DNA of 64,000 nt from Giardia intestinalis (lineage: Eukaryota): assembly GCA_000002435.2 (NCBI GenBank), contig CM018793.1; one strand, 5' to 3'. Made by a program: the position numbers and the translations under genes. Below the pieces are notes generated by a model. The model was not told the DNA's origin, made no database searches, and worked only from the letters and a program-made list of their open reading frames with translations. Shown one piece after another: positions 1-55,753 of this stretch. Positions within the stretch are counted from its first letter, which is position 1; every line of letters begins with the position of its first letter.

Positions 1-62
1 TCGTCGTGGGGGGCCTCGTGGGCTTCTTGTGTTGGTGGTTTGTGTGTAGAGGGAAGGCGTAG
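1..62 (+). pseudogene. 3' end (…VVGGLVGFLCWWFVCRGKA*) of an upstream VSP unit that is truncated by the window edge
   Basis: Identical to the last 62 nt of units 1-4. TAG stop at 60-62. Confidence 0.9.
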
Positions 63-72
63 GTACTTAGGT

Positions 73-79
73 AGTGAAT
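73..79 (+). terminator. Giardia poly(A) signal AGTGAAT (AGTRAAY) 11 nt after the VSP stop codon. It recurs at 1908, 3743, 5578 and 7413
   Basis: Exact match to the Giardia AGTRAAY consensus at the expected distance from the stop. One copy per repeat unit. Confidence 0.7.
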
Positions 80-130
80 GCTATGAGTGATGATAATGGG
101 TGATAGTGGGTGATAGTATGATAGTGGAGT

Positions 131-1897: not shown

Positions 1898-1965
1898 GTA
1901 CTTAGGTAGTGAATGCTATGAGTGATGATAATGGGTGATAGTGGGTGATAGTATGATAGTGGAGT

Positions 1966-3732: not shown

Positions 3733-3800
3733 GTACTTAGGTAGTGAATGCTATGAGTGATGATAATGGGTGATAGTGGGTGATAGTATGATAGTGGAGT

Positions 3801-5567
3801 GTGATATGCACAACAGCCAGTAACGGAGTATGCACTGCTTGTAATACAGCTAACGGCCTGTTCAAGAACCCAGCTACAGCACCGAAGTCTGGTAGTGAGT
3901 GCATCCTGTGCTGGGATACCAAGGGAGCAGATGGATATACGGGGGTGGCTAACTGCGCCACATGTACGGCACCAGCTAGTAGTCCAGGACCTGCCACGTG
4001 TACTGAGTGCAAGGCTGGGTACGTTACGAAGGACAGTGCATGTGAGAAGTGCCAAGGGAACTGTGCCACCTGTGAGACTGAGGCGACCCACTGTACCTCT
4101 TGTAAGGGAAATACGTTCCTGAAGACTGATACTAACACTTGCGTAGAGGCTGGTCAATGCACTGGAAATAAGTACCCCGACCCAAGCACCGGCAAGTGCA
4201 CAGCTTGTAACGCTCAAGAAGTGGGGATAGATGGATGCGACACATGTGAGTATGATACGACGCTGCAGAAGCCGAAGTGCCTGACCTGTACTGGTAAGAT
4301 AGTCAAGGAAGAGGCCGACGGGACGACCACCTGCATTGCTGAGGGGGCTTGTACCCAAAACGGGAACGATGGTCCGAACTTTCTAACTGAACCGAACAAA
4401 AAGTGCATTCTCTGCAATAACACTGCAGATTCAACCCCTGGCAATACAGGTGTTCTTGGTTGTAGCACATGCTCTAAAGCTAATTCTGGTACAAATCCTC
4501 AGTGCAAGACATGCCTCGACGGATACTACAATAGCGCAAATAGTGGTAGTGGTACCGCTACATGCACAGTCTGTGGCGAGAATTGCGCCACCTGCACTCA
4601 AGCTGGCAATAATCAGTGTACTAAATGCAAGCCTGGATTCTTCATGAAAGGCAGTGGTCCTACTGGTGAGTGCCTTCCTTGTGATAATGCACAGGAGGGC
4701 ATCGATGGATGTGCTGAGTGCACTGGTCCTGCAGGATCCCTCAAGTGTACAAAGTGCAAGCCTAACAGGAAGCCCGTTGGAACCTCAGACAACTATACAT
4801 GCACAGAGAAGACCTGCGAGGATGAGACTGCGTGTGGGGGTACCTCTGGTGCCTGTGATGCCATGATAATAGATGATAAGGGCAATGCAAAGCACTACTG
4901 TTCCTACTGTGGGGATAGTACTAAGTTCCCCATTGATGGACTATGTGTCAGTACTGGTAGCAATGCAAATGGTAATACTTGTACCAGTCATACATGTACA
5001 TCATGTGCTGCTAACTACTTCCTCTATATGAACGGCTGTTATAGTGTATCAGCTCAACCTGGCAACTACATGTGCAAGAAAGCAGATAATAATGGGATAT
5101 GCACAGAGGCGGCCAACAATAAGTACTTCATAGTCCCAGGGGCATCCAATCAGAATCAGTCTGTACTAGCATGTGGTAACCCCCTAGGCACACTAGTAGA
5201 TACTAAGGCATACGTGGGGGTCGAGGGCTGCTCTCAGTGTACAGCCCCGACAGCTCTAACAACAGCTGGCATGACCGCTGCTGTGTGTACCTCCTGTGAC
5301 AGTGATAGGAAGCCCAACAAGGATGGTACTGGGTGTGTGCTGTGCTCTGACACCAACTGCAAGAGCTGTGTGATGGACGGTGTGTGTGAGGAGTGCAACA
5401 GTGGCTTCAGCCTAGACAGCAGTGGGGCCTCCTGTGTGTCCTCTGGCGCCAACAGGAGCGGGCTCTCCACGGGGGCCATCGCGGGGATCTCCGTCGCCGT
5501 GGTCGTCGTCGTGGGGGGCCTCGTGGGCTTCTTGTGTTGGTGGTTTGTGTGTAGAGGGAAGGCGTAG
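3801..5567 (+). pseudogene. VSP copy 3. Its translation is identical to copy 2
   Basis: Identical translation to copy 2. Confidence 0.85.
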
Positions 5568-5635
5568 GTACTTAGGTAGTGAATGCTATGAGTGATGATA
5601 ATGGGTGATAGTGGGTGATAGTATGATAGTGGAGT

Positions 5636-7402
5636 GTGATATGCACAACAGCCAGTAACGGAGTATGCACTGCTTGTAATACAGCTAACGGCCTGTTCAA
5701 GAACCCAGCTACAGCACCGAAGTCTGGTAGTGAGTGCATCCTGTGCTGGGATACCAAGGGAGCAGATGGATATACGGGGGTGGCTAACTGCGCCACATGT
5801 ACGGCACCAGCTAGTAGTCCAGGACCTGCCACGTGTACTGAGTGCAAGGCTGGGTACGTTACGAAGGACAGTGCATGTGAGAAGTGCCAAGGGAACTGTG
5901 CCACCTGTGAGACTGAGGCGACCCACTGTACCTCTTGTAAGGGAAATACGTTCCTGAAGACTGATACTAACACTTGCGTAGAGGCTGGTCAATGCACTGG
6001 AAATAAGTACCCCGACCCAAGCACCGGCAAGTGCACAGCTTGTAACGCTCAAGAAGTGGGGATAGATGGATGCGACACATGTGAGTATGATACGACGCTG
6101 CAGAAGCCGAAGTGCCTGACCTGTACTGGTAAGATAGTCAAGGAAGAGGCCGACGGGACGACCACCTGCATTGCTGAGGGGGCTTGTACCCAAAACGGGA
6201 ACGATGGTCCGAACTTTCTAACTGAACCGAACAAAAAGTGCATTCTCTGCAGTAATAATGTAGATTCAACCCCTGGCAATACAGGTGTTCTTGGTTGTAG
6301 CACATGCTCTAAAGCTAATTCTGGTACAAATCCTCAGTGCAAGACATGCCTCGACGGATACTACAATAGCGCAAATAGTGGTAGTGGTACCGCTACATGC
6401 ACAGTCTGTGGCGAGAATTGCGCCACCTGCACTCAAGCTGGCAATAATCAGTGTACTAAATGCAAGCCTGGATTCTTCATGAAAGGCAGTGGTCCTACTG
6501 GTGAGTGCCTTCCTTGTGATAATGCACAGGAGGGCATCGATGGATGTGCTGAGTGCACTGGTCCTGCAGGATCCCTCAAGTGTACAAAGTGCAAGCCTAA
6601 CAGGAAGCCCGTTGGAACCTCAGACAACTATACATGCACAGAGAAGACCTGCGAGGATGAGACTGCGTGTGGGGGTACCTCTGGTGCCTGTGATGCCATG
6701 ATAATAGATGATAAGGGCAATGCAAAGCACTACTGTTCCTACTGTGGGGATAGTACTAAGTTCCCCATTGATGGACTATGTGTCAGTACTGGTAGCAATG
6801 CAAATGGTAATACTTGTACCAGTCATACATGTACATCATGTGCTGCTAACTACTTCCTCTATATGAACGGCTGTTATAGTGTATCAGCTCAACCTGGCAA
6901 CTACATGTGCAAGAAAGCAGATAATAATGGGATATGCACAGAGGCGGCCAACAATAAGTACTTCATAGTCCCAGGGGCATCCAATCAGAATCAGTCTGTA
7001 CTAGCATGTGGTAACCCCCTAGGCACACTAGTAGATACTAAGGCATACGTGGGGGTCGAGGGCTGCTCTCAGTGTACAGCCCCGACAGCTCTAACAACAG
7101 CTGGCATGACCGCTGCTGTGTGTACCTCCTGTGACAGTGATAGGAAGCCCAACAAGGATGGTACTGGGTGTGTGCTGTGCTCTGACACCAACTGCAAGAG
7201 CTGTGTGATGGACGGTGTGTGTGAGGAGTGCAACAGTGGCTTCAGCCTAGACAGCAGTGGGGCCTCCTGTGTGTCCTCTGGCGCCAACAGGAGCGGGCTC
7301 TCCACGGGGGCCATCGCGGGGATCTCCGTCGCCGTGGTCGTCGTCGTGGGGGGCCTCGTGGGCTTCTTGTGTTGGTGGTTTGTGTGTAGAGGGAAGGCGT
7401 AG
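5636..7402 (+). pseudogene. VSP copy 4, a mosaic: it has the copy-1 allele at site A (SNNV) and the copy-2 allele at site B
   Basis: Its translation equals copy 1, but its alternate-frame ORFs match copies 2 and 3 around 6540-6580. Confidence 0.85.
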
Positions 7403-7470
7403 GTACTTAGGTAGTGAATGCTATGAGTGATGATAATGGGTGATAGTGGGTGATAGTATGATAGTGGAGT

Positions 7471-9186
7471 GTGATATGCACAACAGCCAGTAACGGAGTA
7501 TGCACTGCTTGTAATACAGCTAACGGCCTGTTCAAGAACCCAGCTACAGCACCGAAGTCTGGTAGTGAGTGCATCCTGTGCTGGGATACCAAGGGAGCAG
7601 ATGGATATACGGGGGTGGCTAACTGCGCCACATGTACGGCACCAGCTAGTAGTCCAGGACCTGCCACGTGTACTGAGTGCAAGGCTGGGTACGTTACGAA
7701 GGACAGTGCATGTGAGAAGTGCCAAGGGAACTGTGCCACCTGTGAGACTGAGGCGACCCACTGTACCTCTTGTAAGGGAAATACGTTCCTGAAGACTGAT
7801 ACTAACACTTGCGTAGAGGCTGGTCAATGCACTGGAAATAAGTACCCCGACCCAAGCACCGGCAAGTGCACAGCTTGTAACGCTCAAGAAGTGGGGATAG
7901 ATGGATGCGACACATGTGAGTATGATACGACGCTGCAGAAGCCGAAGTGCCTGACCTGTACTGGTAAGATAGTCAAGGAAGAGGCCGACGGGACGACCAC
8001 CTGCATTGCTGAGGGGGCTTGTACCCAAAACGGGAACGATGGTCCGAACTTTCTAACTGAACCGAACAAAAAGTGCATTCTCTGCAATAACACTGCAGAT
8101 TCAACCCCTGGCAATACAGGTGTTCTTGGTTGTAGCACATGCTCTAAAGCTAATTCTGGTACAAATCCTCAGTGCAAGACATGCCTCGACGGATACTACA
8201 ATAGCGCAAATAGTGGTAGTGGTACCGCTACATGCACAGTCTGTGGCGAGAATTGCGCCACCTGCACTCAAGCTGGCAATAATCAGTGTACTAAATGCAA
8301 GCCTGGATTCTTCATGAAAGGCAGTGGTCCTACTGGTGAGTGCCTTCCTTGTGATAATGCACAGGAGGGCATCGATGGATGTGCTGAGTGCACTGGTCCT
8401 GCAGGATCCCTCAAGTGTACAAAGTGCAAGCCTAACAGGAAGCCCGTTGGAACCTCAGACAACTATACATGCACAGAGAAGACCTGCGAGGATGAGACTG
8501 CGTGTGGGGGTACCTCTGGTGCCTGTGATGCCATGATAATAGATGATAAGGGCAATGCAAAGCACTACTGTTCCTACTGTGGGGATAGTACTAAGTTCCC
8601 CATTGATGGACTATGTGTCAGTACTGGTAGCAATGCAAATGGTAATACTTGTACCAGTCATACATGTACATCATGTGCTGCTAACTACTTCCTCTATATG
8701 AACGGCTGTTATAGTGTATCAGCTCAACCTGGCAACTACATGTGCAAGAAAGCAGATAATAATGGGATATGCACAGAGGCGGCCAACAATAAGTACTTCA
8801 TAGTCCCAGGGGCATCCAATCAGAATCAGTCTGTACTAGCATGTGGTAACCCCCTAGGCACACTAGTAGATACTAAGGCATACGTGGGGGTCGAGGGCTG
8901 CTCTCAGTGTACAGCCCCGACAGCTCTAACAACAGCTGGCATGACCGCTGCTGTGTGTACCTCTTGTGGTGAGAGTAAGAAGCCCAACAAGGATGGCACT
9001 GGGTGTGTGCTGTGCTCTGTGGGTGATTGCAAGAGCTGTGTGATGGATAATATATGTGGGGAGTGCAACAGTGGCTTCAGCATAGACAATGGTAAGTGCG
9101 TGTCCTCTGGCAGTAATAGGAGCGGGCTCTCCACGGGGGCCATCGCGGGGATCTCCGTGGCTGGTCTCGTTGGGCTTCTGTGTTAG
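7471..9186 (+). pseudogene. VSP copy 5, the terminal copy. Its last ~230 bp have diverged and the TM region is shortened, so it ends ...VAGLVGLLC* without CRGKA
   Basis: Identical to copies 2 and 3 up to about 8955, then about 85% identity with an internal deletion in the TM segment. The stop is at 9184-9186. Confidence 0.85.
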
Positions 9187-9804
9187 TGATGACTACTGGC
9201 CCGGGGTGGGCATCCGCTGTCCATCCGCCCGGTGCTGCTACGTGCCCGTGGAGGTCTGGACGCCCGCTGCAACCAGGGTGGAGAGAGTCGGCGCTGCGGC
9301 ACCCCCGCTGGGTCTCGCCGTGAGTGAGGGCAGAAGCTCTCGGGGGCCCCGGGGGCAATGCCTGATGTGCAGAGCAGTGGACAGCTCAGCCGTGGATTTA
9401 AAATAGCGCGTCGCTCGATGGCGCTCCCCGGCCTGCCGAAGCAGCGGGTGCTCGACTGCGTAGCATAGGCGCCGAACCACGCCTGCAGCCGTGGGAGGCC
9501 GGCGCAGCATGGGCGGTCCCTGCACAGGGTGGCTCGGACCCGCCACCCGGCCGTTGCGTGCAGGCACCGCCCACTCGGTCCGCTCGGCTGGCCTCTGCAA
9601 AAGACCGGCACACGGAGTGGCAGGACCTGTGCACCCCCGAGGGACAGGGGCTCGACTCGCCCTCTGAGGATCGCTCCGTGCCGACTCCGGGCCCGCCGTT
9701 CGACCACGCGGAGGCCGGGCATCCGGGAGCCTCCACAGCAGAGGTAGTGTGGCGGATCCTTGCTGATTCGGACACATTAAAAACTTGTATCCTCAAGGAT
9801 TCAC

Positions 9805-12303
9805 ATGAGGGTTCTCATCCTTCTTCTTCTGCACGGTATTTTCTCAGAGTGCACCCAGGACAGCGACTGCGGGGGTGCGACCGGCGTCTGCAACGTCACG
9901 ATCGGCGGCAAGAAGTACTGCTCCAAGTGCGACGGAGCGCGGGTCCCCGTCAACGGAGACTGCAGGCTGCTGAGCCTCTCGCGGGGTATATGCATAGTGC
10001 CCACGGGCAGCAACCCCACTCCGGGCTCCTGCTCGGGCTGCATCCGGGACTTCCTCTTCTACAGGGGCGGGTGCTACCGCACGGCATCCCTGATCAACGC
10101 CATATGCAAGGAGAAGCACGTCGTCGAGGAGGGGATGTACTGCGGGGCGTGCGCCATCGAGGGCGACGTCCCGATCGACGGGGTGTGCGTGCCGGCTGGG
10201 AGTGCTGCAGGAAACACGTGCGACAAGGGCGTGTGCACAACATGCACAGGCGGCTACTTCCTCCACTACGGGTCGTGCTACAAGTTTGATAGTTCTCCCG
10301 GCAGCATTGTGTGTCCTAATCAAGCTGACACCACTGGCTCTGTCTGCGGCTCTTGCGGATCGAAGTTCGTCAAGAACCCCAGTGCGAGCTCGTCTGCCAC
10401 CTCCTGCCTCGCGTGCTACGGGCTGGACGGGACCCTCTTCTGCGAGCGCTGCCGGATGAACGTGCTCACGGGCGCAGATGTGAAGCCTACCCTCTGCACG
10501 CAGTGCAAAATAGGCTACGTGCCCGTCGACGGCCGGTGCCTCTCCAACTACTCCGCCCTGGCCGCGCTCGCCGGGTGCTCCGACCCCCGGGGCAACGGGC
10601 TCTGCGACGCGTGCTCCTCCGGCTTCATGCTCTTCTACGGGAGCTGCTACTCCGTCGACGGCCCCCTCGCCCAGGCCATCTGCGCGGCCGAGGACCAGAT
10701 CTACGTCAACGGCCGGGTGCTCTGCAAGAGGTGCGCCCAGCCCGACCACTACCCCCTGAACGGCGTCTGCATCGGCCAGAGCTCGGACGGGACCGACGGA
10801 CACACGTGCAGCGGCGGGTCGTGCACGGTCTGCAGCACCAAACAGACCGCAGACAATACCCCCGAGTTCTTCCTGTTCTACAGCGGCTGCTACGACATCA
10901 CCCACCCCATCGGGAAGTCGATCTGCTCCGCTGTAGCTGATGGCGCCTGCACAGCATGCGCGTCCTCGGACTCCTCGAGTGTGATAACCATCACTGCAGA
11001 TGGCCAGTCATCCAAGTGCCTCGCCTGCTGGGACGACACGGTGGGGGGAGTAGCCAACTGCGGGGGCTGCTCGCTCGCCAGTGATGGCCCCGCCAAGGTT
11101 GTGTGCACCAGGTGCTCGGACTCGACGGAGCCCGGCGAGGATGGCGCGTGCCCCCGAGCCCTCCCGCCCGCAACGCCCGAAGGGTGCGCCGTCCAGGGCT
11201 GCCAGGCGTGCTCGAAGGACTCTGCCACGACGTGCGACGCCTGCTTCGAGCCTCTCATCATGAAGGAGGACAAGACGAAGTGCTTCGGGAGCTGCCTGGC
11301 GCTGGGCCCGGGCTACTACAACGCCAGCGGGGCCTGTGCGCGCTGCGTGGAGAACTGTCTCTCCTGCGTAGACGGGACCTCGTGCTCCCGGTGCGCAGAC
11401 GGGTACTACCTCGAGGTGTCCGGCAGCGACTCCTCAACGGGGGCGTGCAGGCCGTGTGCCGCCGGGTGCTCAACGTGTAATGACGGCAGTAGCGCAGGTT
11501 GCACGACGTGTCTCCTCGGATACTACATCGCGGCCGAGGGAAAAAGGCAACCTGGGCAGTGTGTGAAGTGTGACTCTAGTATAGGCGGTTACATGGGCGT
11601 CCAACACTGCATTGTCTGCCGCAGCACCGTGGGGGACGGGGGAGCCAAGAACGTCGTCTGCCAGAAGTGCGAGGACGGGTATCTCAAGGAGACGGACCAG
11701 GGCAAGACCGTCTGCGAGGCGCCCCCGCCCACATGCACCGTGGAGCTGTGCGCTCTGTGCGTGGCCGACGACCCCAATAGATGCGAGCACTGCACGGCCG
11801 GCGCGTACCTCTGCCCGCGGACGGCGACGTGCACGAAGGACTGCGCCAGCTGCGGCGGCTCGATGTACCCCGACGAGGACCTCGGGGAGTGCCAGCCGTG
11901 CGACATCGCGAACTGCCGGGTCTGCGCGACGGGGCTCAAGTGCGAGAGCTGCGCGGAGAGCGCCGTCCCCATCTCCCCGGACGTCTACCACACGGCGTGC
12001 ATGGGCTGCAGCGACACCGGGGGCATGGACGGCTGGGTGGGCCTCGCGGGGTGCACGACCTGCGAGCTGACCGACAAGGGCGGCGGGAGCGTCAACTGCC
12101 TCGACCCTGGCTACTACCGGCGGGGCGGGCTCGGCGGGGGAGCAATCGCCGCCATCGTCATCGTCGTCCTCCTCGTCCTGGCCGTCGCCGGCTTCCTCGT
12201 CTGGTGGTTCGTCTTCAGGAGGGGCGGCCGGCCCAAGCGCGGGGCGAAGTACACGTCGCTCACGCGGGGCGAGTCCTACGACTACCGCCAGTCCCTGATA
12301 TGA
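9805..12303 (+). CDS. High-cysteine membrane protein (HCMP, VSP-like). It has a signal peptide, about 90 Cys in CXXC/CXC motifs, one C-terminal TM and a 38-aa basic cytoplasmic tail with no CRGKA
   Basis: ATG at 9805 followed by MRVLILLLLHGIFS. Motifs such as FLFYRGGCY and FMLFYGSCY are present. The TM is GGAIAAIVIVVLLVLAVAGFLVWWFVF. About 68% GC. Confidence 0.9.
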   Translation: MRVLILLLLHGIFSECTQDSDCGGATGVCNVTIGGKKYCSKCDGARVPVNGDCRLLSLSRGICIVPTGSNPTPGSCSGCIRDFLFYRGGCYRTASLINAICKEKHVVEEGMYCGACAIEGDVPIDGVCVPAGSAAGNTCDKGVCTTCTGGYFLHYGSCYKFDSSPGSIVCPNQADTTGSVCGSCGSKFVKNPSASSSATSCLACYGLDGTLFCERCRMNVLTGADVKPTLCTQCKIGYVPVDGRCLSNYSALAALAGCSDPRGNGLCDACSSGFMLFYGSCYSVDGPLAQAICAAEDQIYVNGRVLCKRCAQPDHYPLNGVCIGQSSDGTDGHTCSGGSCTVCSTKQTADNTPEFFLFYSGCYDITHPIGKSICSAVADGACTACASSDSSSVITITADGQSSKCLACWDDTVGGVANCGGCSLASDGPAKVVCTRCSDSTEPGEDGACPRALPPATPEGCAVQGCQACSKDSATTCDACFEPLIMKEDKTKCFGSCLALGPGYYNASGACARCVENCLSCVDGTSCSRCADGYYLEVSGSDSSTGACRPCAAGCSTCNDGSSAGCTTCLLGYYIAAEGKRQPGQCVKCDSSIGGYMGVQHCIVCRSTVGDGGAKNVVCQKCEDGYLKETDQGKTVCEAPPPTCTVELCALCVADDPNRCEHCTAGAYLCPRTATCTKDCASCGGSMYPDEDLGECQPCDIANCRVCATGLKCESCAESAVPISPDVYHTACMGCSDTGGMDGWVGLAGCTTCELTDKGGGSVNCLDPGYYRRGGLGGGAIAAIVIVVLLVLAVAGFLVWWFVFRRGGRPKRGAKYTSLTRGESYDYRQSLI

Positions 12304-12306
12304 CCC

Positions 12307-12313
12307 AGTAAAC
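12307..12313 (+). terminator. Poly(A) signal AGTAAAC 4 nt after the HCMP stop
   Basis: AGTRAAY match. Confidence 0.55.
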
Positions 12314-12334
12314 GGAGCCGTCAGAGCGGACGGC

Positions 12335-14352
12335 TTGCTCTGCAGCGACTTACAGGGGGCAGGCCAGGCAGCCGTGTCCAGGATGGGCGCGCCCGGCTGT
12401 CCCGGCAGAAGGAGGCGCCGGAAGTGCTCGGAGACGGTGTCCTCCGTGTGCTGCATGCAATCAGGAGGCAAGCACACTCTATTCTACGGCAGCTGCTACA
12501 CGAGCACACCAGCACGGGACGGAAGCTTAGGTAGCCCTCTGTGCTCCGACACAGTCGGGTCCGGTGGATACAGGGGCGCCTCTGGTGTCCAAGCCGCGTG
12601 TCCCCCGTACGTGGCAAAACGGCATCGCCCTGTGTGCTAGGTGCTGCCACACAACAGAGAACAGAAGCGTTTATCCAACCGACCATCATGCCAGCTAAGG
12701 GACCCCGTACTTGTGTCAACGGATACTCACATCCTGCCACAAGACACGCCGCCCTACAGGTGTGGATACTAGGGCCGGCACAGCTCGACCGGGCTTGCTA
12801 TAGGTGCAGAGCAGGCCAGTACGAACTGGAGCATGCGACCATCTGCACAGAGTGTGCGAACAACTCCTGCGCCTGGGAGCGGTGCATGCGCCCTTGCTAG
12901 GGAGAGCTCGTCCCTCGAAGAGATCGCTTTGAGCGCACAAAGGACCAACCAAGGGGCGTGCACAGCCTGCTCCAACTCTGTAAAGCCCTTCCTGCTCTAC
13001 GGCGGCTGCTCCGAGGACAGGCTCTACATCTGCTCAAGACCCTGCTCAGAAAGCGGGTCGAATGCTTGCGAACAGTGGAGCAGTGCTTCCGGGTGGATCT
13101 TCTCTAAGAATGCGGGAGCAATGGAGACCGATATCTGTGCGATGACGCTCCAAATGGGGGCATTTCTGGCTGTGCCACGTGTAGGTACAATAACGGTGTG
13201 ACGTGTACGCGGTGCTCGGCGAGGCACCTCGGGGTGGATGGGAAGTCCTGCAGTGAGAGCTGCAGTGGAGACACTCAAGGAGTGTGCACAAAGGTAGCAG
13301 AGGGGAGCGAGTCAACTGAAGTGTCGTGCCGGTGCGTCTGCAGGATGGGCCTCTACAACAGCTCCGGAACCTGCACACCATGTACGGACTCGTGCGCTGT
13401 CTGCAAGGATGGCAAGTCAACCGGCTGCCAGCAGTGCAGCCCCGGCAAAGTCCTGGAGCCGTCAGTCGTCGCAAACGGTAATGCAAAATGTGTAGATGAG
13501 TGCGCTGTTGGTGACGACTGTGCAGAGTGCGGCATCACCATCGACGGCAGCAGGTACTGCACGCGCTGCAAGGACTCGAATATGTACCCTCTCAACGGGG
13601 TGTGTATTCCGAACACACAAAAAGACGCGTACTGCACCAACAAGGCAAATGGTGCTTGTACTACATGCTCAGGAGCGGCCTTCCTGATGAACGGGGGCTG
13701 CTACACAACGGAGCACTATCCAGGAAGCACTATCTGTGACAAACAGGCAGGCGGGAAGTGTGAGAAGACCAAGAAGGAGTACGGGATATCGGACGATGGA
13801 AAGCTGCTGGAGTGCGACCCGACATGTCTGGGGTGCACCGCCCCTGGCCCCGGCCGCTGCACCAGGTGCCCCTCTGACAAGCTCCTGAAGAGGGCCTCAG
13901 GTGCCGCCACCGGGAGCTGCATTGACCCCAACGCCTGTGTAGACGGGTACTATGCAGACGGAGACGCGTGCCTGCCCTGCGCCACTCCGGGGTGCAAGAC
14001 CTGCGGGCATGCCTCCTTCTGCACAGAGTGCGCGGGGGAGCTCTTCGTGAGCCTGGACGGGCAGTCGTGCCTGGGGGAGTGCACCGGGGACAAGGTGGTG
14101 GGAGAGGTGCCCGGTGGCGTGCGGAGGTGCTGGTGCGAGCGGGGTTTCCTGCCGGCGCTGGACAGATCCGAGTGTGTGCTCCCAACCGAGTGTCCCCCTG
14201 ACATGCCATCGTGTGCTGCCTGCGATACGTCGGGTAGGTGCCTCTTGTGTGCCGCCTCGAATCATAACATCCAGACAGATCAGCGGACATGTGCAGAAGG
14301 GTGCGGTGCCAGGGCCTCATCGAACCAGGGGGTGTGTCACAAAAACTCTTAG
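12335..14352 (+). pseudogene. Frameshifted high-cysteine (VSP/HCMP-like) pseudogene. The coding signal alternates between frames 2, 1, 2 and 1, and there is no TM or CRGKA at the end
   Basis: VSP-type motifs occur in successive ORFs: TLFYGSCY (12335..12640), CYRCRAG...CTECANNSC (12541..12900), CTACSNSVKPFLLYGGC (12833..13201) and DDAPNGGISGCATCRYNNGVTCTRC running into 13198..14352. The last ORF 'starts' at a GTG. Confidence 0.7.
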
Positions 14353-14554
14353 CAGGTTCCTCGAGTGGCATGAATAGGAAGACAGGCTATTGTGAGGCCA
14401 CTCGGATCACATCACCAGATGTTTAGTTGCTCGATAACATTGATATTTTCTGCAGACATGCAAGCGAATCGTTAGTGGCTGCTAATAAATGTAGGACTTA
14501 GTGGTGGTAAAAGATCGTCAGTTGAATAGAATACGTCAATAGCATTGGTACATG

Positions 14555-17281
14555 TTACGGACGAACACGGCGCTTCAGTTGAGCAGGAGCTCGCTTTGGC
14601 TTGGAAATCGCGACTGGACAATCATCTTCTGTAAGGACCTCGTTGCTACTAGTCACACAACTATTTTCAGAAGACTCTAATGTAAGGTTGCCTCGAGTAG
14701 AGTAAGACGGCACTTGATAGCAACTCTTAAAAAGCTCAGCATGTGCAATAAAATTGGTCAGTATCTTATTACGTTCCAAATAAGTAGGAGGATCTTTTTC
14801 GCAAATAATTTCAAAGAGGTCAACCGGTTGGATAATGGATAAAATGTGCAACATAATCAAGCGCTCGTATCGATAAAATGCAGGGTCGAATACCAATCGC
14901 GGGTCATCATAGTCTTCTGGCAAGTCTGGCAGTAGTTCTTCTTTAAAGTTGCAAGACATCATGTAACATAGTTCTTCGATGTACTCATAAAACCTTCCAA
15001 ATAAGAAGCCTCCTGCGCGAGAATATATGGTCAGCTGCTCAGAAATAGCATCCAGAGAGGGTGGAGCGGCACTGCATACACTTGTAAGGTGTGCGCTTTC
15101 AAGAGGATTAATAGAGGCGAGACTTACATCCAGCTGCACAAAATCAGACGTCCAATTCTTGACCCTATAATAGTGTCCATCGTGCTTCACCATTTGCTGG
15201 ATGAACTCCTTGGACAGACAAGCCTTAAATACGCTATCAAATATAGGATGGGTCATCATCCGCAACGGGTTGTTAGTTGCCGATATGGTGTTGGTAGGAA
15301 CGGGCACCAATTCAAGCTTACTCAGTACGTGAGACACTTGCTGTGACGCTTCGGGAAAGTCATAGGGGGATAGGGTGATAGGACTTGTTATGCTCACGGT
15401 AAGCATATCTGAAAATTCAGAGCTTCTATATGCAATCAGTTGAGTAAGTGAAGTTGTGAGATAGTCGTACTTGGGACGGTTATCCAAAAACGTAGACGGG
15501 TGCCGAAGAAATAGAGAAACATCAAATAAACTCACAGAGCGGAGTGCAAAAATAAAAAACTGATCATCAGCAATCTGCTTGGGGGTCACAATATTGTCAC
15601 ACAAAAAATCCGCGCGTATAAAGCGGGACATGTCTGAACAGTTATCAAAGTCTACAGGCAGTCGAGCTGCTCTGTTCTTAGTTTCGATGCTCAATAGAAT
15701 GTCTTCAGTGGTTGTATCATTGAAGTAGTCATGAAAGTTATTAAGGAGTTGGGCTTCAATAGGAATAAATTGAATGGATGCATACCTAGCCAATAACATA
15801 GTGTATGCGTGGTTTTTGGGATAAAGCAATCTTGTGAAATCAATAGTCTGTAAATGAGCAGTATCATGAGTATTATTCGTAATAAAAAATCTTTTAAGAA
15901 GAAGATATTTTCCGAGCAGATTTGCATAGTTGATATGCAAAGATATGAAAGCGTTATTATCATGCGCCTCTTCGCTGTCCTCAAGCACCTGGGGGAAAGT
16001 GTCAGTGTCGAAACTATACTTTGTAGAATGGCACCTATTTTTAACAATTCTAGTGTACAGATTTTCAAAATCACATCTTACATATGTGGGCGTCTTTGAA
16101 AAGAGATCGGCAAATTCTGATTCGAGAGCCTTGATCTTCGTTGTTAAGGTTGCTATTTGCAAATGATAGTTGTCTCTAAGGGTTTTAAAATAGATCTTTT
16201 TATAAAGATTTCCTGCAACTTTATAAATGCGAGACATCTTAAATCCGCGGAAGTCTTGCTTAAAGTAATGCTTAGCAAGATACTCTACATCATTGAGTTG
16301 GGATTTTCTAAAGTCGATTAACTTCTGAGTTGCTTCGTCTACAAATTCATACTTCTTATTCTCAGTGTTCACCAAACGTTTAATTGCTGGCCTCCGGACG
16401 CCAACTCCGCTAGTATTAGACTTCTTAGTTAGCCGCTGAGTCACCTTACGGGGTTTTCTTTGGGGCGGCGGAGTCTGCACGTCTGTCAACTGACTCTTTT
16501 GGCTGCTCTTCTGCTGGCTTTGATCAGTGTCGAGGCTCGGAAGACTACTCCTGCCAGTTTCTGTATCCGAGGATATCTGTGAGGGTCGAAATTCATCAGA
16601 AGAAGACACGCTCGGCTCTGAAATGGCACTGCTAGTGTCAGAGGTGATAGCATGGTTGAGGTTTCGGGAAGGTGCATGCTTCTCATTCAGTGATTCTCTG
16701 CTAGGTGCCATTGCAGGTCGTATTTTTTGCTCTTTACCCTTGTCTGATTTAAGCACTGATTCCAGCTGATCCTTCTTGGTGAACGGGGGGCGTTCCTGCA
16801 GTGAAGCATCACCTGGCTCTAACTTAACTCTTCTACGTGCGCCCTCCGGCTTCTTCCTCACTAGAGCAGGAGGATGGAGCGTTTCAGAGCTGTTTATAAG
16901 CTCTATCAGTGTGTTGAATAAGGTTCTGCATTGAGACTCATCGTACTGACGAGCCCGAGAGAGCTTCCGACGACAAGCAGGGCAGTGGTACTTGAACAAA
17001 GCCAACTTTCCCACGTGGCTTACAGTGACATTCTCCATGGATCGGCGAGTCTCAGGATCCTTACTGATTCTAAATTCGAGCGCCCTAGTGGACGCGAGAC
17101 TTGCAAGGCGTGGATGTCCCTTAAGGTCAGTACAGCCTAGGTGACAATACCTGTGACACATCACGCACATAACATTTTCTGGAGCATCCTCCAAAGCTTT
17201 TTTGCACAGAAAGCAGACGCCTTCATCATACACCTCGGACTCCTCAGTGGTAGATCCGCTTTCTAGGTTCCCTCTCGGCAT
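14555..17281 (-). CDS. PHD-type zinc-finger protein, a hypothetical 908-aa protein
   Basis: ATG (rc) at 17279-17281. The N-terminal region shows a C4HC3 pattern: CFLC-x12-CVMC-HRYC-H-LG-C...CPAC. Confidence 0.8.
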   Translation of the reverse strand: MPRGNLESGSTTEESEVYDEGVCFLCKKALEDAPENVMCVMCHRYCHLGCTDLKGHPRLASLASTRALEFRISKDPETRRSMENVTVSHVGKLALFKYHCPACRRKLSRARQYDESQCRTLFNTLIELINSSETLHPPALVRKKPEGARRRVKLEPGDASLQERPPFTKKDQLESVLKSDKGKEQKIRPAMAPSRESLNEKHAPSRNLNHAITSDTSSAISEPSVSSSDEFRPSQISSDTETGRSSLPSLDTDQSQQKSSQKSQLTDVQTPPPQRKPRKVTQRLTKKSNTSGVGVRRPAIKRLVNTENKKYEFVDEATQKLIDFRKSQLNDVEYLAKHYFKQDFRGFKMSRIYKVAGNLYKKIYFKTLRDNYHLQIATLTTKIKALESEFADLFSKTPTYVRCDFENLYTRIVKNRCHSTKYSFDTDTFPQVLEDSEEAHDNNAFISLHINYANLLGKYLLLKRFFITNNTHDTAHLQTIDFTRLLYPKNHAYTMLLARYASIQFIPIEAQLLNNFHDYFNDTTTEDILLSIETKNRAARLPVDFDNCSDMSRFIRADFLCDNIVTPKQIADDQFFIFALRSVSLFDVSLFLRHPSTFLDNRPKYDYLTTSLTQLIAYRSSEFSDMLTVSITSPITLSPYDFPEASQQVSHVLSKLELVPVPTNTISATNNPLRMMTHPIFDSVFKACLSKEFIQQMVKHDGHYYRVKNWTSDFVQLDVSLASINPLESAHLTSVCSAAPPSLDAISEQLTIYSRAGGFLFGRFYEYIEELCYMMSCNFKEELLPDLPEDYDDPRLVFDPAFYRYERLIMLHILSIIQPVDLFEIICEKDPPTYLERNKILTNFIAHAELFKSCYQVPSYSTRGNLTLESSENSCVTSSNEVLTEDDCPVAISKPKRAPAQLKRRVRP

Positions 17282-17450
17282 TTCGGAGACTTATTATCAC
17301 GTCCCAAATGTTGATTGTAAAGAACCGTAAAGTCTACTCCTGTAGAGGATATCAGGAGTAGCTCGTCTACAAACATCCGCAGCACATGGGCATCTGTGAG
17401 GGCTGACTAGAGCTAGATAGAAATTCCCAAGGATTTTTTTGATTTGCTCG

Positions 17451-18143
17451 ATGGAGGCAGACTTGCAGCGTACGCGACTGGTTATCTTCGATTTAGATGG
17501 GACCCTGAGTGACACGTTGGAGAGCATTGGGAAGGCTGTCAATGATACTATGGTGCACTGTGGCATGGATCCGCACCCTCTTGATTCTATCCGAACGTTT
17601 ATTGGCAGCGGCATGATGGTTCTCTTTAAGCGTGCAGCCCCCGGTGTATCTGAGCAGATGCTACAAGATATGTGCACGTTTTATCAAGAAAGAGTCACAC
17701 TTTACGCCAAAGAAGACAGGCTCTACGATGGTATCGAAGAACTTTTAGAAGGTCTTCATAAGAGAGGCACCAAGCTGGCAATTGTCTCGAATAAGCCGCA
17801 GGTAAGTATGGAATCGTGTTTACGGTCCCTTTTCAGAAACCGGCCTGAAATGCGTGAATGGTTTTGCGCTGTGTACGGGCTGTCAGATCTTTCTTTAGCA
17901 AAGCCGAATCCTACGTTCACCCGGCGTGTTCTTGAAGATGAGGGTGTTCATCCGGAAGATGCTATCTACGTTGGAGACAGTATTGTCGACGTTCAAACCG
18001 CTCAGGCTGCGGGACTGCGGTGCATCGGCTGCGCCTGGGGCCTGGGAGAACGAGCAGACGTGGAGAAGGCAGATATGGTGGCTGAGACTACGTTCGATTT
18101 ACTCCACATGCTGTTAGGAGATGCAAGGGCCTCGGGTCTGTAA
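17451..18143 (+). CDS. HAD-superfamily hydrolase, phosphoglycolate phosphatase-like
   Basis: Motif I is FDLDGTL, motif II is SNKP and motif III is VGDSIVDVQTA. The true ATG is at 17451 because the track start 17439 is TTG. Confidence 0.8.
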   Translation: MEADLQRTRLVIFDLDGTLSDTLESIGKAVNDTMVHCGMDPHPLDSIRTFIGSGMMVLFKRAAPGVSEQMLQDMCTFYQERVTLYAKEDRLYDGIEELLEGLHKRGTKLAIVSNKPQVSMESCLRSLFRNRPEMREWFCAVYGLSDLSLAKPNPTFTRRVLEDEGVHPEDAIYVGDSIVDVQTAQAAGLRCIGCAWGLGERADVEKADMVAETTFDLLHMLLGDARASGL

Positions 18144-18155
18144 ACCTGGACAACA

Positions 18156-19148
18156 TCAAACATTCTTAGAGTCGGCCATGGACAAAATCAGGTTTGTTCG
18201 CTCGCCGGTCTCAAGGAGCATTTCAGCATCGGTGAGTCTAGCCTTATAATCCTCTAGCTCGCAAGTCAGATGATCCAGCTCTGACTTGCCCCTGGTAAGA
18301 GCCTCCTCTAGCTGCGTGATCCTTGCACGCATTGCAGCACTCTCCGCAATCACAAGGTCAGCATGGCTGTTTGCGGCATTGAGCATGTCACTATACTTCT
18401 CTAACTTCCTCTCAAGCTCACACTCGTAGCTAGTCTTCATCACCTTGGTCGCCTCAGATCCGAAGTTCTCCATCCCCTTACGAGAAATGTCGATGGCCTT
18501 GATCATGGCACAGATGTCGTACGACTGAGCAACCCCCTGGCTTTGGGCAAGGCTAAGATTCGTGAGAGACTGAGAAACCGTCTCATCGTCGTCCTTCGCA
18601 AACTGGGCCAAGACAGCAGCAACCTCGGCGTGGCCATTCTCAGCAGCGTACTTCAGGGGAGAGCCCGGTCCCATATCCTCGTGACTCTCGCGGGACATCA
18701 GAAACTTGACGCAGTCTAAGTTTCCGCGCTCCGCTGCGTAGGACAGCGCGTTCCTGTTAATCTTGGAGTATTTGTCCTTGAGATACGGCGACAGCACCAT
18801 GACGGCCTCATACGACCCAGACATGGCTGCTATCATGAGGGCGGTGAAATCGTCGCTGCCCCCGGTGAGGTCACCCTCGAAGTGAACGAGGCGGCGGCAA
18901 AGCTTGGATTTGTTGAGCTCGGCAGCGATCATGAGGGCAGTGTAGCCCCTGGCGTCCCGCTTACCGTACTCATTCTGAACAAGAATACGCGCCATGTCGT
19001 CGTCATTCATAATGACAGCCCTCATAAGGCCCGTATGTCCCTCTTCGTTGACACTCCCAGCGTATTGCTCAAGGTTGGCACGCACGTGGTCGTACTCACG
19101 CTTCTCGATGGCCGAGAACCAGGAGTTCTTGCCCTTAAGTTCTAGCAT
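18156..19148 (-). CDS. Ankyrin-repeat protein (Giardia 'protein 21.1'-like) with a C-terminal coiled coil
   Basis: Repeated ankyrin-repeat motifs (GHTGLMRAV, GYTALMIAA, FTALMIAAMSG, NALSYAAERGN). ATG (rc) at 19146-19148. Confidence 0.8.
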   Translation of the reverse strand: MLELKGKNSWFSAIEKREYDHVRANLEQYAGSVNEEGHTGLMRAVIMNDDDMARILVQNEYGKRDARGYTALMIAAELNKSKLCRRLVHFEGDLTGGSDDFTALMIAAMSGSYEAVMVLSPYLKDKYSKINRNALSYAAERGNLDCVKFLMSRESHEDMGPGSPLKYAAENGHAEVAAVLAQFAKDDDETVSQSLTNLSLAQSQGVAQSYDICAMIKAIDISRKGMENFGSEATKVMKTSYECELERKLEKYSDMLNAANSHADLVIAESAAMRARITQLEEALTRGKSELDHLTCELEDYKARLTDAEMLLETGERTNLILSMADSKNV

Positions 19149-19362
19149 AGCTTTTTAAGTTAATGTGTTTTATTTTTTTAACTTTTTTTGAATTTCTTAT
19201 GTATTCTTGTATGACCGAAGGATTCGTGGACACGGCTGAGCGGGCCTAGGCGTCTCTCTACTATAGAACCTGTCCACCGCAATGATAGTCCTTAGCCAAA
19301 ATTGCCAAGACCCATACAGCTTCGAAAATTGCAATTAATTCTTGGCAATTGTCGCCCGACCG

Positions 19363-20313
19363 ATGCAAGGCTTTGAGTTGACCAAGCAGCACGGTCAGCA
19401 CTTACTGGCTAATCCGTTGGTCATAAAGTCCATTGTGGAGAAAGCAGAGATTCGAAGCACTGACACTGTTCTTGAGATAGGCCCAGGAACAGGAAACCTC
19501 ACTCTGGCCCTTCTTGAGAAGGCAAGGCACGTAATAGCCATTGAGATAGACCCACGGATGGTCTCAGAACTCAAGAAGCGGATCGCAGCTATCCCGGAAT
19601 ATCGTGGAAAATTCACTATCATACACAAGGACTTCACTAAGATGCCGCCGAGTGAGATTCCCCCTTTTGACTTGTGCGTTAGTAACTGCCCGTACAACAT
19701 CTCGTCAGGAATAGTGTTTCGATTACTCGAGATCCAACCCCTCCCTCGAAAGTTCGTCCTGATGTTTCAGCTCGAGTTTGCGCAGCGCCTTGCTGCTGAG
19801 CCTGGTCAGGATCAGTACAGCAGATTGACAGTTAACACTAAGTTACTCTCTAAGACTAAAATTATAATACGGGTGAGTAGGAATAGCTTTAAGCCACCGC
19901 CAAATGTTGACTCAGCTGTTGTAGAGATGTATCCTGTTGGCCCTCCGCCTGGGCTGGACCTAGATGAGTTTAATGGGTTAACCCGGATTTTGTTTTCAAA
20001 GAAGAACAAAACGCTCGGGGCCATATTTAAGACTAAGAGCCTCCTAGATGATCTTGCAAATAATATAGCGCGATTGGATGAGATCAGCCGGCTCCATAAG
20101 CCTGCTCAGCACGAGGGCTCTAACCCTAGCCATTCAGCTTCCTCAATTGGAGCTAAGCCCTCAGTATTGACCGGCGTACAGCTTCGTGAACGAATAGCAG
20201 AGGCCCTTGCAGAGGCCAATCTTACAGATACCCGGCCAAATCACATGGCAATCCCCGATCTGTTGAGCCTCATGTGTGCACTCGCTGCCAAGGGGGTTCG
20301 ATTTACAAACTGA
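19363..20313 (+). CDS. DIM1: 18S rRNA (adenine-N6,N6)-dimethyltransferase Dim1/KsgA
   Basis: QHLLANPLVIKSIVEKA, LEIGPGTGNLT, NCPYNISS, FKPPPNVDSAVV and FSKKNKTL are all present. The ATG is at 19363 because the track start 19342 is TTG. Confidence 0.9.
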   Translation: MQGFELTKQHGQHLLANPLVIKSIVEKAEIRSTDTVLEIGPGTGNLTLALLEKARHVIAIEIDPRMVSELKKRIAAIPEYRGKFTIIHKDFTKMPPSEIPPFDLCVSNCPYNISSGIVFRLLEIQPLPRKFVLMFQLEFAQRLAAEPGQDQYSRLTVNTKLLSKTKIIIRVSRNSFKPPPNVDSAVVEMYPVGPPPGLDLDEFNGLTRILFSKKNKTLGAIFKTKSLLDDLANNIARLDEISRLHKPAQHEGSNPSHSASSIGAKPSVLTGVQLRERIAEALAEANLTDTRPNHMAIPDLLSLMCALAAKGVRFTN

Positions 20314-20403
20314 GAGCGTCTAAGTCTGTAGATAAGGAGTAAATGTCGTCTTCTAACGTCATTTTTATCTTAAAAACAACTCATAATTCACTGCCCTCCG
20401 CTG

Positions 20404-22116: not shown

Positions 22117-22223
22117 TGCGTCTTCTTTGGCCTGCGATGACCTTTTTTGGCCGCGGCGAGCTTTGTACATATTTAAGTAAATAGACAATTGAAAATAACA
22201 GAACCAATTAATTTTCACAAAAG

Positions 22224-23381: not shown

Positions 23382-23543
23382 CGCGGTGCTGTCTTTGATG
23401 CCCTGCGGCAAGCAGCCGTGAGCTCCAATATTTTCATTAGTGTCTCATGAATCGTAAATTTACACTTTCTAATTCCTTTTTCGGTGGGATGAGATTGATA
23501 AGGCTGGGCTCCGTTGGAGTAGCGGGTTTCAAGTAATTAAAAA

Positions 23544-55682: not shown

Positions 55683-55753
55683 TGCATCAACCGGGACTCG
55701 GACCCGGCTCTCTTGCTTGGCAAGCAAGCATTCTACCCCTAAACCATTGATGC
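55683..55753 (-). tRNA. tRNA-Gly, anticodon GCC, the inverted duplicate
   Basis: Exact reverse complement of 49136..49206. Confidence 0.9.

What the first reader, a model, noticed from the sequence alone, without database searches (positions are those of the whole stretch)
9187..14352. Sharply bounded GC-rich island (about 65-70% GC) holding an intact HCMP gene and a decayed cysteine-rich paralogue
Composition jumps from about 50% GC in the array to about 68% across a 618-bp non-coding GC-rich tract (9187-9804), the HCMP gene and the downstream pseudogene. It then falls to about 45% from 14.4 kb onward. A 618-bp intergenic tract is very long for this otherwise 10-70-bp-spaced genome. The HCMP keeps a long basic cytoplasmic tail (RRGGRPKRGAKYTSLTRGESYDYRQSLI) in place of CRGKA. 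The island, together with the VSP array on one side, looks like a variable or accessory block abutting a conserved housekeeping block that begins at 14.5 kb.
Basis: partly seen in the sequence, partly recalled or inferred. Interest (0 to 1): 0.5.

Follow-up and report, generated by a model that had tools for sequence, protein, structure and literature searches.

The report
GC-rich HCMP gene pair in Giardia
The GC-rich island is real. It is an already annotated Giardia surface-protein gene plus a broken neighbouring copy, an example of the GC-rich cysteine-rich-gene islands already described in this parasite. It sits at the same place in three isolates.

Summary
Window 9187-14352 is 64.3% GC, against 49.9 ± 2.9% for equal-sized windows elsewhere, and both edges are sharp.

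The window is Giardia intestinalis WB, on the 4.02-Mb contig. The island contains:
- a 618-bp non-coding upstream tract (68% GC);
- an intact, already annotated HCMP Group 3 gene (XP_001704229.1, GC3 0.87);
- a Group 4 HCMP pseudogene with no start, signal peptide or TM/tail.

Both edges are structural breakpoints. On the left, the last unit of a headless pseudo-VSP array is truncated at about 9190. On the right, about 0.9 kb has been deleted at 14336-14371.

The island is not isolate-specific. DH (AII) and P15 (E) carry the same pair next to the same housekeeping genes, and P15 still has an intact second gene.

The content does change quickly. The central region of the Group 3 gene is a different type in P15. 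The 3' ends of the paralogues evolve in concert. WB-DH dS is 5-17 times that of the flank.

Paralogue gene conversion is well supported. That a GC bias in this conversion causes the high GC is my inference.

GC-rich VSP/HCMP islands were described in 2009-2010, so novelty is low.

The parts
7471..9190 (+). Last, 3'-truncated unit of the 1835-bp headless pseudo-VSP tandem array. It forms the left border of the island.
   Evidence: Array units are 99.6-100% identical. The last unit diverges from about 8900 onward. Its TM segment carries a deletion and a TGG-to-TAG change. Homology to the other units stops at about 9190, so ...WFVCRGKA, the AGTGAAT signal and the 68-bp spacer are all missing. The unit ORFs have no ATG before codon 282. 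Pfam VSP, E = 7.5e-35.
9187..9804 (+). GC-rich (68%) non-coding tract upstream of the HCMP gene. An A-rich initiator-like element, ATTAAAAACTTGT, lies about 20 bp before the ATG.
   Evidence: 68.1% GC. Cys-rich-protein similarity is no better than in dinucleotide shuffles: best 27.7 bits against 26.2 ± 2.2, maximum 34.7. No Rfam match at E <= 1. The proximal 276 bp (9529-9804) align at 73% with the equally GC-rich upstream of a P15 paralogue at another locus, L004. The AAAAACTTGT core is shared by all four upstream regions aligned. Sequence read.
9805..12303 (+). Intact HCMP Group 3 gene of 832 aa. It has a signal-peptide-like N-terminus, 34 CXXC motifs, one C-terminal TM and a 28-aa basic tail.
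   Evidence: The translation is exactly XP_001704229.1 / KAE8304798.1 of Giardia WB. Pfam VSP, E = 3e-46. 11.5% Cys, with a single hydrophobic peak whose 19-residue windows start at residues 773-788. GC3 0.87. dN/dS is 0.22-0.30 against paralogues and orthologues.
12307..12313 (+). AGTAAAC, a Giardia-type polyadenylation signal 3 nt after the HCMP stop codon. Paralogue homology ends at 12319-12322.
   Evidence: Sequence read. That AGTRAAY is the Giardia poly(A) signal comes from my own knowledge.
12320..14352 (+). HCMP Group 4 pseudogene. The 5' third is collapsed and frameshifted. The 3' part is still an open 384-codon frame (13198-14352). It has no start codon, signal peptide, TM or tail.
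   Evidence: tblastn with the intact P15 gene matches residues 204-753 at 12694-14337 in frame 1 and residues 151-345 at 12539-13111 in frame 2. The ORFs are fragmented. Relative to P15 there are multiple 1-2-bp indels and about 670 bp of deletions, shared by WB, DH-L006 and DH-L005. The nearest proteins are annotated HCMP Group 4. No hydrophobic segment. Pfam VSP, E = 5e-32.
14336..14371 (.). Deletion junction forming the right border of the island. About 890 bp present in P15 is missing here: the last 72 codons of the Group 4 gene, including the TM and tail, plus about 700 bp of spacer.
   Evidence: Window 14336 corresponds to L001 5479, and window 14371 to L001 6403. The DH paralogous copy L005 keeps this sequence up to L001 5813, so it is ancestral. 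DH-L006 shares the WB junction and the ...GVCHKNS* end.
14555..17281 (-). First gene of the conserved housekeeping block. It is 908 aa, has no Pfam domain, and converges on the pseudogene.
   Evidence: ORF. Identity is 99.2% to DH and 85% to P15, with conserved downstream genes HAD, Ank, RrnaAD and DnaJ. No Pfam family.

Best explanation
The island is a positionally conserved tandem pair of Giardia cysteine-rich surface-protein genes. The first is an intact HCMP Group 3 gene with its upstream region. The second is a Group 4 HCMP that has become a pseudogene in assemblage A. The pair lies between a headless pseudo-VSP array and a core housekeeping block.

Its edges are sharp because both are rearrangement breakpoints. 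On the left, the last array unit is cut at about 9190. On the right, a deletion of about 0.9 kb removed the 3' end of the Group 4 gene and its spacer.

The high GC is mainly extreme third-position GC (0.87), plus GC-rich flanks.

Shown or strongly inferred: the Group 3 and Group 4 families are dispersed multi-copy families whose members repeatedly overwrite each other by ectopic gene conversion.

Inferred, not shown: this recombination is GC-biased. Over time it has driven silent sites and the adjacent non-coding DNA of the exchanged segments to high GC, while neighbouring single-copy genes stay at about 45-50%.

The pseudogene's open 3' frame is best explained by continued overwriting from intact paralogues rather than by a function of its own.
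For: Identity and anatomy.

Synteny: P15 and DH.

Breakpoints.

Dispersed copies:
- DH L005 carries the whole 9784-14336 segment at 94.5% identity next to different genes.
- DH L007 and P15 L004 carry only the Group 3 gene next to yet other genes.
- WB has two further copies at least 96% identical to this one, plus two at 75%.

Gene conversion:
- In the last 98 codons, 14 sites unite the two P15 paralogues against the A copies, and none unite P15-L004 with the A copies. Elsewhere the counts are 96 and 367 (Fisher p = 6e-10).
- Third-position identity between the two P15 paralogues is 0.97-1.00 over the last three 40-codon windows (about 120 codons) and 0.33-0.90 elsewhere.
- C-terminal residues 661-832 cluster by genome, whereas central residues 241-660 fall into two types only 60% identical. 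The syntenic P15 gene is type II and the WB/DH gene is type I.
- DH paralogues are closer to each other (97.4-98.0%) than to the syntenic WB gene (96.7%).
- WB-DH dS is 0.015 in the 908-aa gene, 0.078 in the HCMP and 0.262 in the pseudogene ORF, with no gaps and dN/dS of 0.36.
- Pseudogene residues 76-105 are 50-63% identical to the syntenic DH copy but 90-93% identical to another DH Group 4 gene.

Link to GC:
- GC3 is 0.92-1.00 in the concertedly evolving 3' segment in assemblages A, E and B. In B the rest of the gene is only 0.31-0.71.
- Non-coding flanks are also GC-rich, at 68% and 63%. At fourfold sites both C (0.50) and G (0.36) are raised.
- A homologue in a more distant lineage has background GC3 of 0.25-0.47.

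Literature: Giardia genes inside gene-conversion events are GC-enriched and enriched for VSPs (PMC12669663).
Against: - GC bias of the conversion was not measured. The identity-GC3 correlation (rho 0.73-0.90) is partly automatic, because fewer states exist at high GC3. It would also arise from stronger codon selection on conserved segments.
- Fourfold-site GC (86%) exceeds flank GC (63-68%), which leaves room for codon selection.
- The adjacent VSP array is itself highly homogenised but only 51% GC. Homogenisation alone therefore does not produce high GC.
- DH and P15 are short-read draft assemblies whose contigs break in these repeats. Some mosaicism could be an assembly chimera.
- The WB paralogue loci could not be read as DNA.
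Confidence: 0.55

Rival explanations
1. Translational selection. The HCMP is, or is when induced, a highly expressed gene. Its GC3 would then reflect selection for Giardia's GC-ending optimal codons, and the flanks would be GC-rich only because they are recently decayed coding sequence.
For: - GC excess is concentrated at third positions (GC3 0.87, GC1/2 0.54/0.58).
- Fourfold GC of 86% exceeds flank GC of 63-68%.
- C is favoured over G at fourfold sites (0.50 vs 0.36).
- The gene is under purifying selection (dN/dS 0.22-0.30).
- Giardia optimal codons all end in G or C (Lafay & Sharp 1999, PMID 10555279, cited in PMC1805757; the content is from my own knowledge).
- HCMPs are induced by host-cell contact (PMC7461913).
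Against: - The 618-bp tract has no coding remnant, yet it is 68% GC.
- The pseudogene remains at 61% GC with GC3 of 0.69-0.73.
- In assemblage B, GC3 is 0.31-0.71 over most of the homologue and above 0.9 only in the exchanged 3' end.
- A more distant homologue has background GC3.
- The Group 3 genes named in the induction tables show only modest changes, and which of them is this gene was not established.
Confidence: 0.22
2. Regional property of chromatin or mutation. VSP/HCMP regions are GC-rich domains with a regulatory or silencing role, as Franzen et al. suggested, or with a distinct mutational environment. The genes merely sit inside such a domain.
For: - Coding, pseudogene and non-coding parts are all raised.
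- Other GC-rich patches in the window also accompany Cys-rich genes, for example the 51.7-53.2 kb spacer of an inverted pair.
- The published suggestion is in PMC2723961, and longer, more GC-rich upstream regions of Cys-rich genes are reported in bioRxiv 10.1101/2022.03.07.483299.
Against: - High GC travels with the sequence to unrelated chromosomal contexts. L004, L005 and L007 are GC-rich only across the HCMP segment and drop to 45% at its ends.
- The adjacent VSP array is at genome-average GC.
- The upstream region of the syntenic P15 gene is 45% GC.
Confidence: 0.15
3. One reading: an isolate-specific accessory insertion, or foreign DNA, next to the core genome.
For: - The compositional borders are sharp.
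- Draft contigs of other isolates break here.
- HCMPs are often found in non-syntenic regions (PMC3091692).
Against: - The same pair lies beside the same genes in AI, AII and E.
- All homologues are Giardia proteins.
- The contig breaks are explained by the 94-98% identical paralogues.
Confidence: 0.05

Closest known systems
GC-rich VSP/HCMP chromosomal islands of Giardia intestinalis (Franzen et al. 2009, PMC2723961; Jerlstrom-Hultqvist et al. 2010, PMC3091692)
   Same: A sharply bounded stretch of above-average G+C with atypical codon usage, made of HCMP or VSP genes and set between core genes with stable composition. A few such HCMPs are reported as positionally conserved between genomes.
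   Different: Here the VSP array itself is not GC-rich (51%). The island is the HCMP pair alone. Those papers, as far as I read them, do not give the breakpoints, the type switch or the 3'-end concerted evolution.
HCMP Group 3 and Group 4 genes of Giardia WB (Davids et al. 2006 family; GL2.1 annotation of Xu et al. 2020, PMC7000408)
   Same: The Group 3 gene is the annotated WB protein itself. The pseudogene's nearest relatives are annotated Group 4.
   Different: The Group 4 copy here lacks a start codon, signal peptide, TM and tail. It matches the 'high cysteine protein = probable pseudogene' class of bioRxiv 10.1101/2022.03.07.483299.
Non-reciprocal gene conversion in GC-rich, VSP-enriched genes of G. 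duodenalis (PMC12669663)
   Same: Conversion tracts are short (median 3.3 kb), GC-enriched and concentrated in Cys-rich surface-protein genes. That scale and that kind of target match this island.
   Different: That study concerns exchange between sub-assemblages AI and AII. Here the evidence is for exchange between paralogues within a genome. Neither study measures a GC bias of repair.
Pseudogene-fed segmental gene conversion in antigen families, e.g. trypanosome VSG (from my own knowledge)
   Same: The pseudogene has a mosaic of segments shared with different intact paralogues.
   Different: There is no evidence here that the pseudogene donates sequence to an expressed gene. HCMPs are not known to undergo antigenic switching.

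Membership tests
High cysteine membrane protein (HCMP), gene 9805-12303 | Cysteine-rich ectodomain (about 10% Cys or more) with many CXXC motifs and similarity to VSPs | tested here: met
   11.5% Cys and 34 CXXC motifs. Pfam PF03302 VSP, 158.5 bits, E = 3e-46.
High cysteine membrane protein (HCMP), gene 9805-12303 | N-terminal signal peptide and a single C-terminal transmembrane segment | tested here: met
   There is one hydrophobic peak, with 19-residue windows starting at residues 773-788 (Kyte-Doolittle 3.34). The N-terminus MRVLILLLLHGIFS was read. No dedicated signal-peptide predictor was available, so the signal peptide is judged by eye.
High cysteine membrane protein (HCMP), gene 9805-12303 | Cytoplasmic tail that is not CRGKA | tested here: met
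   The tail is RRGGRPKRGAKYTSLTRGESYDYRQSLI.
HCMP Group 3 | Sequence membership in the annotated Group 3 cluster | tested here: met
   [quoted passage not shown] The group label is the annotators' own.
Variant-specific surface protein (VSP), gene 9805-12303 | Invariant C-terminal CRGKA tail | tested here: not met
   The tail is 28 aa and unrelated to CRGKA. The array units at 1-7402 do end in CRGKA.
HCMP Group 4 pseudogene, 12320-14352 | Closest intact relatives are Group 4 HCMPs | tested here: met
   The syntenic P15 gene is annotated Group 4. WB and DH relatives are 61-80% identical to it. tblastn gives 58% identity over 560 aligned positions to the window.
HCMP Group 4 pseudogene, 12320-14352 | Disabling lesions: loss of start and signal peptide, frameshifts, loss of TM and tail | tested here: met
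   The N-terminal 150 or so codons are absent and the homology switches frame. The ORFs are fragmented. The C-terminal 72 codons are deleted. There is no hydrophobic segment. Placement of the 1-2-bp indels at 73% identity is approximate.
Giardia GC-rich VSP/HCMP island | G+C clearly above the flanking core genes, atypical codon usage, and VSP/HCMP gene content | tested here: met
   64.3% against 49.9 ± 2.9%. GC3 of 0.87 against 0.41-0.68. Definition from PMC3091692 and PMC2723961.
Isolate-specific (non-syntenic) accessory region | Absent from the orthologous position in other isolates | tested here: not met
   Present beside the 908-aa gene in DH (AII) and P15 (E). Assemblage B and more distant lineages could not be judged, because their contigs end 290-350 bp past the 908-aa gene.
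GC-biased gene conversion tract | Evidence of non-reciprocal exchange between paralogues | tested here: met
   Site patterns 14:0 against 96:367, p = 6e-10. Clustering by genome in the C-terminal region. A mosaic pseudogene. Raised dS.
GC-biased gene conversion tract | Excess of AT-to-GC over GC-to-AT changes inside the converted tracts | not tested
   This needs polarised substitutions from many paralogues or population data. Only the correlation of GC3 with paralogue identity was obtained, and it is confounded.

The most novel reading that the evidence does not exclude
The Group 3 and Group 4 HCMP families of Giardia assemblages A and E are undergoing ongoing GC-biased ectopic gene conversion, with a hot spot over the last 100-200 codons. 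This has driven silent sites to almost 100% GC. It keeps a start-less, anchor-less pseudogene 'open' as a mosaic partner in the exchange. That would make these loci a natural system for measuring gBGC in a putatively asexual or rarely sexual, tetraploid, early-branching eukaryote.
Probability: 0.35. Interest if true: 0.45.

Novelty: already known. Interest (0 to 1): 0.2.

Why it matters
On its own it matters little. The gene is annotated, and GC-rich HCMP/VSP islands were described in the first comparative Giardia genome papers.

The useful result is a correction. The sharp compositional border marks old structural breakpoints around a conserved slot, not an isolate-specific insertion.

If the GC-biased-conversion reading holds, loci like this would give a direct handle on recombination-driven base-composition change in Giardia. 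They would also bear on how its surface-protein families diversify, and on the debate about sex versus gene conversion in this parasite.

Tried and rejected
- DNA of the WB paralogues. The look-up of encoding contigs has no record of the WB proteins P0001, P0002 or the window's own HCMP. The other WB copies could therefore be compared only as proteins.
- Synteny in assemblage B and more distant lineages. The only B locus recovered (L003) is a paralogous position. Contigs carrying homologues of the 908-aa gene (L008, L009) end 290-350 bp after that gene in AT-rich non-coding DNA. No conclusion was possible.
- The 618-bp tract as a decayed antisense VSP/HCMP. The best tblastn score of 27.7 bits falls inside the distribution from dinucleotide shuffles, so this was rejected.
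- The tract or island as an RNA gene. There is no Rfam match at gathering threshold or at E <= 1.
- rDNA or a retroelement as the source of the GC. There is no rRNA match and no repeat of the tract elsewhere in the window.
- Retroposition as the origin of the dispersed copies. I considered this because paralogue homology ends just after the poly(A) signal. I rejected it because at least 276 bp of upstream sequence is shared with L004.
- The correlation of GC3 with paralogue identity as a test of gBGC. It was computed but I judge it confounded, so I do not use it as proof.
- A recalled title. I remembered Lafay & Sharp's paper as '...genes and isochores'. The reference list in PMC1805757 shows it is '...genes and isolates'.
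Full report
**Observation**

A sliding-window profile shows a plateau of 59-72% GC from about 9.2 to 14.3 kb. To the left lies an array at about 46-58% GC. To the right lies a block at about 36-50% GC.

The stated interval, 9187-14352, is 64.3% GC. That is the maximum of all 5166-bp windows. Windows of the same size lying wholly outside it average 49.9% (sd 2.9, maximum 57.8, n = 98).

GC by part:
- upstream tract 9187-9804: 68.1%
- HCMP gene 9805-12303: 66.2%
- remainder 12304-14352: 60.8%

Both edges are abrupt. The left edge goes from 55.5% to 69.5% across 9186/9187. The right edge goes from 59.0% to 42.5% across 14352/14353.

The excess lies mainly at third codon positions. The HCMP has GC1/2/3 of 0.54/0.58/0.87 and the array units have 0.45/0.58/0.50-0.52. 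The 908-aa gene to the right has 0.48/0.39/0.44. No other ORF of at least 250 codons outside the island exceeds GC3 0.68.

**Identity of the sequence**

The 832-aa product of 9805-12303 is identical to XP_001704229.1 / KAE8304798.1. [quoted passage not shown]

Its features:
- It matches Pfam VSP at E = 3e-46.
- It is 11.5% Cys with 34 CXXC motifs.
- It has one C-terminal hydrophobic segment.
- An A-rich initiator-like element lies about 20 bp upstream of the ATG.
- AGTAAAC follows the stop codon.
- dN/dS against relatives is 0.22-0.30.

It is an intact gene under selection, and it is already annotated.

**The downstream gene**

The syntenic locus of isolate P15 (assemblage E, L001) carries an intact 824-aa 'HCMP Group 4' gene after the Group 3 gene.

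Its protein aligns to window 12694-14337 in one frame and to 12539-13111 in another.

A DNA alignment shows that the WB copy lacks most of the P15 intergenic region and about the first 150 codons. It also carries a series of 1-2-bp indels in its 5' third. Only in-frame changes occur from about 13.2 kb onward.

The open 384-codon frame at 13198-14352 ends ...GVCHKNS* without a transmembrane segment. 'Decayed cysteine-rich paralogue' is therefore correct. More precisely, it is a Group 4 HCMP pseudogene.

**The borders**

Left border. The five array units have a period of 1835 bp and are 99.6-100% identical, but the last one diverges from about 8900. It has a deletion in the TM segment and a TGG-to-TAG change. 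It loses all similarity at about 9190, so the ...WFVCRGKA end, the AGTGAAT signal and the spacer are missing.

The units have no ATG before codon 282. [quoted passage not shown]

Right border. WB 14336-14371 (35 bp) replaces 924 bp of P15. That stretch comprises the last 72 codons of the Group 4 gene, with its TM and tail, plus about 700 bp of spacer. A paralogous DH copy (L005) still has this sequence. It is therefore ancestral and was deleted at this locus.

Both compositional steps are thus structural breakpoints.

**Synteny**

DH (assemblage AII, L006) is collinear with window 10435-20000. It has the same Group 3 gene and the same truncated pseudogene, a 505-codon ORF ending ...GVCHKNS. 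It also has the same 908-aa, HAD, ankyrin, RrnaAD and DnaJ genes.

P15 has the pair in the same place and orientation.

For assemblage B and two more distant lineages the contigs stop just past the 908-aa gene. For the VSP array no comparison was possible.

The draft contigs break here because the Group 3 gene is a 94-98% identical repeat.

**A dispersed, exchanging family**

Copies at other loci:
- DH L005 carries the whole 9784-14336 segment at 94.5% identity, next to unrelated genes.
- DH L007 and P15 L004 carry only the Group 3 gene, next to other genes.
- WB has four more Group 3 proteins on other contigs or elsewhere on this one.

Several results indicate gene conversion between these copies:
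- In the central region (residues 241-660) the proteins fall into two types that are only 60% identical. The syntenic P15 gene is type II, whereas the WB and DH genes at the same position are type I.
- In the C-terminal 170 residues, all assemblage-A paralogues of both types are 94-98% identical to each other. The two P15 paralogues are 97% identical to each other. Identity between A and E is 90-92%.
- At the DNA level, in the last 98 codons, 14 sites unite the two P15 paralogues against the A copies and none support the orthology pattern. Elsewhere the counts are 96 against 367 (Fisher p = 6e-10).
- Third-position identity between the P15 paralogues is 0.97-1.00 over the last three 40-codon windows and 0.33-0.90 elsewhere.
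- DH paralogues resemble each other (97.4-98.0%) more than the syntenic WB gene (96.7%).
- WB-DH identity is 99.0-99.2% in the housekeeping genes. It is 96.7% in the HCMP and only 88.0%, without gaps, in the pseudogene ORF.
- The corresponding dS values are 0.015, 0.078 and 0.262. dN/dS is 0.36 in the pseudogene ORF.
- Pseudogene residues 76-105 are 50-63% identical to the syntenic DH copy but 90-93% identical to another DH Group 4 protein.

**Why the island is GC-rich**

This step is inferred. Four observations point to a process that acts on the exchanged DNA segments rather than on codons alone:
- GC3 is 0.92-1.00 in the concertedly evolving 3' segment in assemblages A, E and B. In B the rest of the gene is only 0.31-0.71.
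- A homologue in a more distant Giardia lineage (L002) has GC3 of 0.25-0.47.
- The non-coding flanks are 63-68% GC. The upstream tract has no coding remnant.
- High GC moves with the segment into unrelated genomic contexts and stops at its ends.

GC-biased gene conversion is the most economical candidate. It also fits the report that Giardia genes in conversion events are GC-enriched and VSP-enriched (PMC12669663).

Several points count against it or remain open:
- Fourfold-site GC (86%) exceeds flank GC.
- The homogenised VSP array is not GC-rich.
- The GC3-identity correlation is confounded.
- No polarised substitution spectrum was obtained.
- The DH and P15 drafts could contain chimeric joins.

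Translational selection for GC-ending codons, and a regional chromatin or mutational domain, remain rivals.

**Comparison with what is known**

Franzen et al. 2009 reported that WB regions containing VSPs have higher GC than their surroundings. They called these 'high GC% islands' (PMC2723961).

Jerlstrom-Hultqvist et al. [quoted passage not shown] They also noted that a few VSP and HCMP genes are positionally conserved across genomes (PMC3091692).

The 2022 preprint on Cys-rich families describes start-less and anchor-less 'high cysteine proteins' as probable pseudogenes. It also describes longer, more GC-rich upstream regions for these genes.

The finding is therefore an example of an already described feature. 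What this analysis adds is local detail:
- the two breakpoints;
- the shared AI/AII deletion;
- the type switch at a conserved slot;
- the 3'-end concerted evolution that coincides with GC3 near 1.

**Verdict**

Novelty is 'already known'. Interest is low at 0.2. The gBGC reading is a moderately interesting hypothesis that remains testable.

Noticed in passing
window 48864-51658 and 53231-56025: A 2,795-bp inverted duplication, 99.96% identical. Each arm carries a tRNA gene (49136-49206 +, 55683-55753 -) and a Cys-rich 331-codon ORF (49664-50659 +, 54230-55225 -), arranged tail-to-tail. The 1.57-kb spacer is 59-62% GC and has no long ORF. It resembles the known inverted VSP pairs of WB.
   Followed up: partly
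window 1-9190: The VSP array consists of 1835-bp units that are 99.6-100% identical. Their ORFs end in CRGKA but have no ATG before codon 282 and no signal peptide, so this is a headless pseudo-VSP array. The edge unit is the only diverged one.
   Followed up: partly
window 1-9186 compared with 9187-24000: CpG observed/expected is 0.47 in the VSP array. It is 0.74-0.99 in the island and 0.84 in the housekeeping block. The cause was not examined.
   Followed up: no
protein P0007 (P15, 57.6-kb contig): This 922-aa 'HCMP Group 4' protein reads as a Group 3 N-terminal part, identical to P0004 from about residue 110, joined to a Group 4 body. That suggests a deletion fused another Group 3 + Group 4 tandem pair.
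   Followed up: no
L002 (Logan run ERR3333383), 1758-4292: A Group 3 HCMP homologue, 56% identical, from a more distant Giardia lineage. It has only 43% GC and GC3 of 0.25-0.47, so the GC enrichment is lineage-specific. The organism was not identified.
   Followed up: partly
window 12301-12322 and the homologous ends in L001, L004, L007: Similarity between dispersed Group 3 copies ends 16-19 bp after the stop codon, just past the AGTAAAC signal. This point is presumably close to the transcript's 3' end, which I could not verify.
   Followed up: partly
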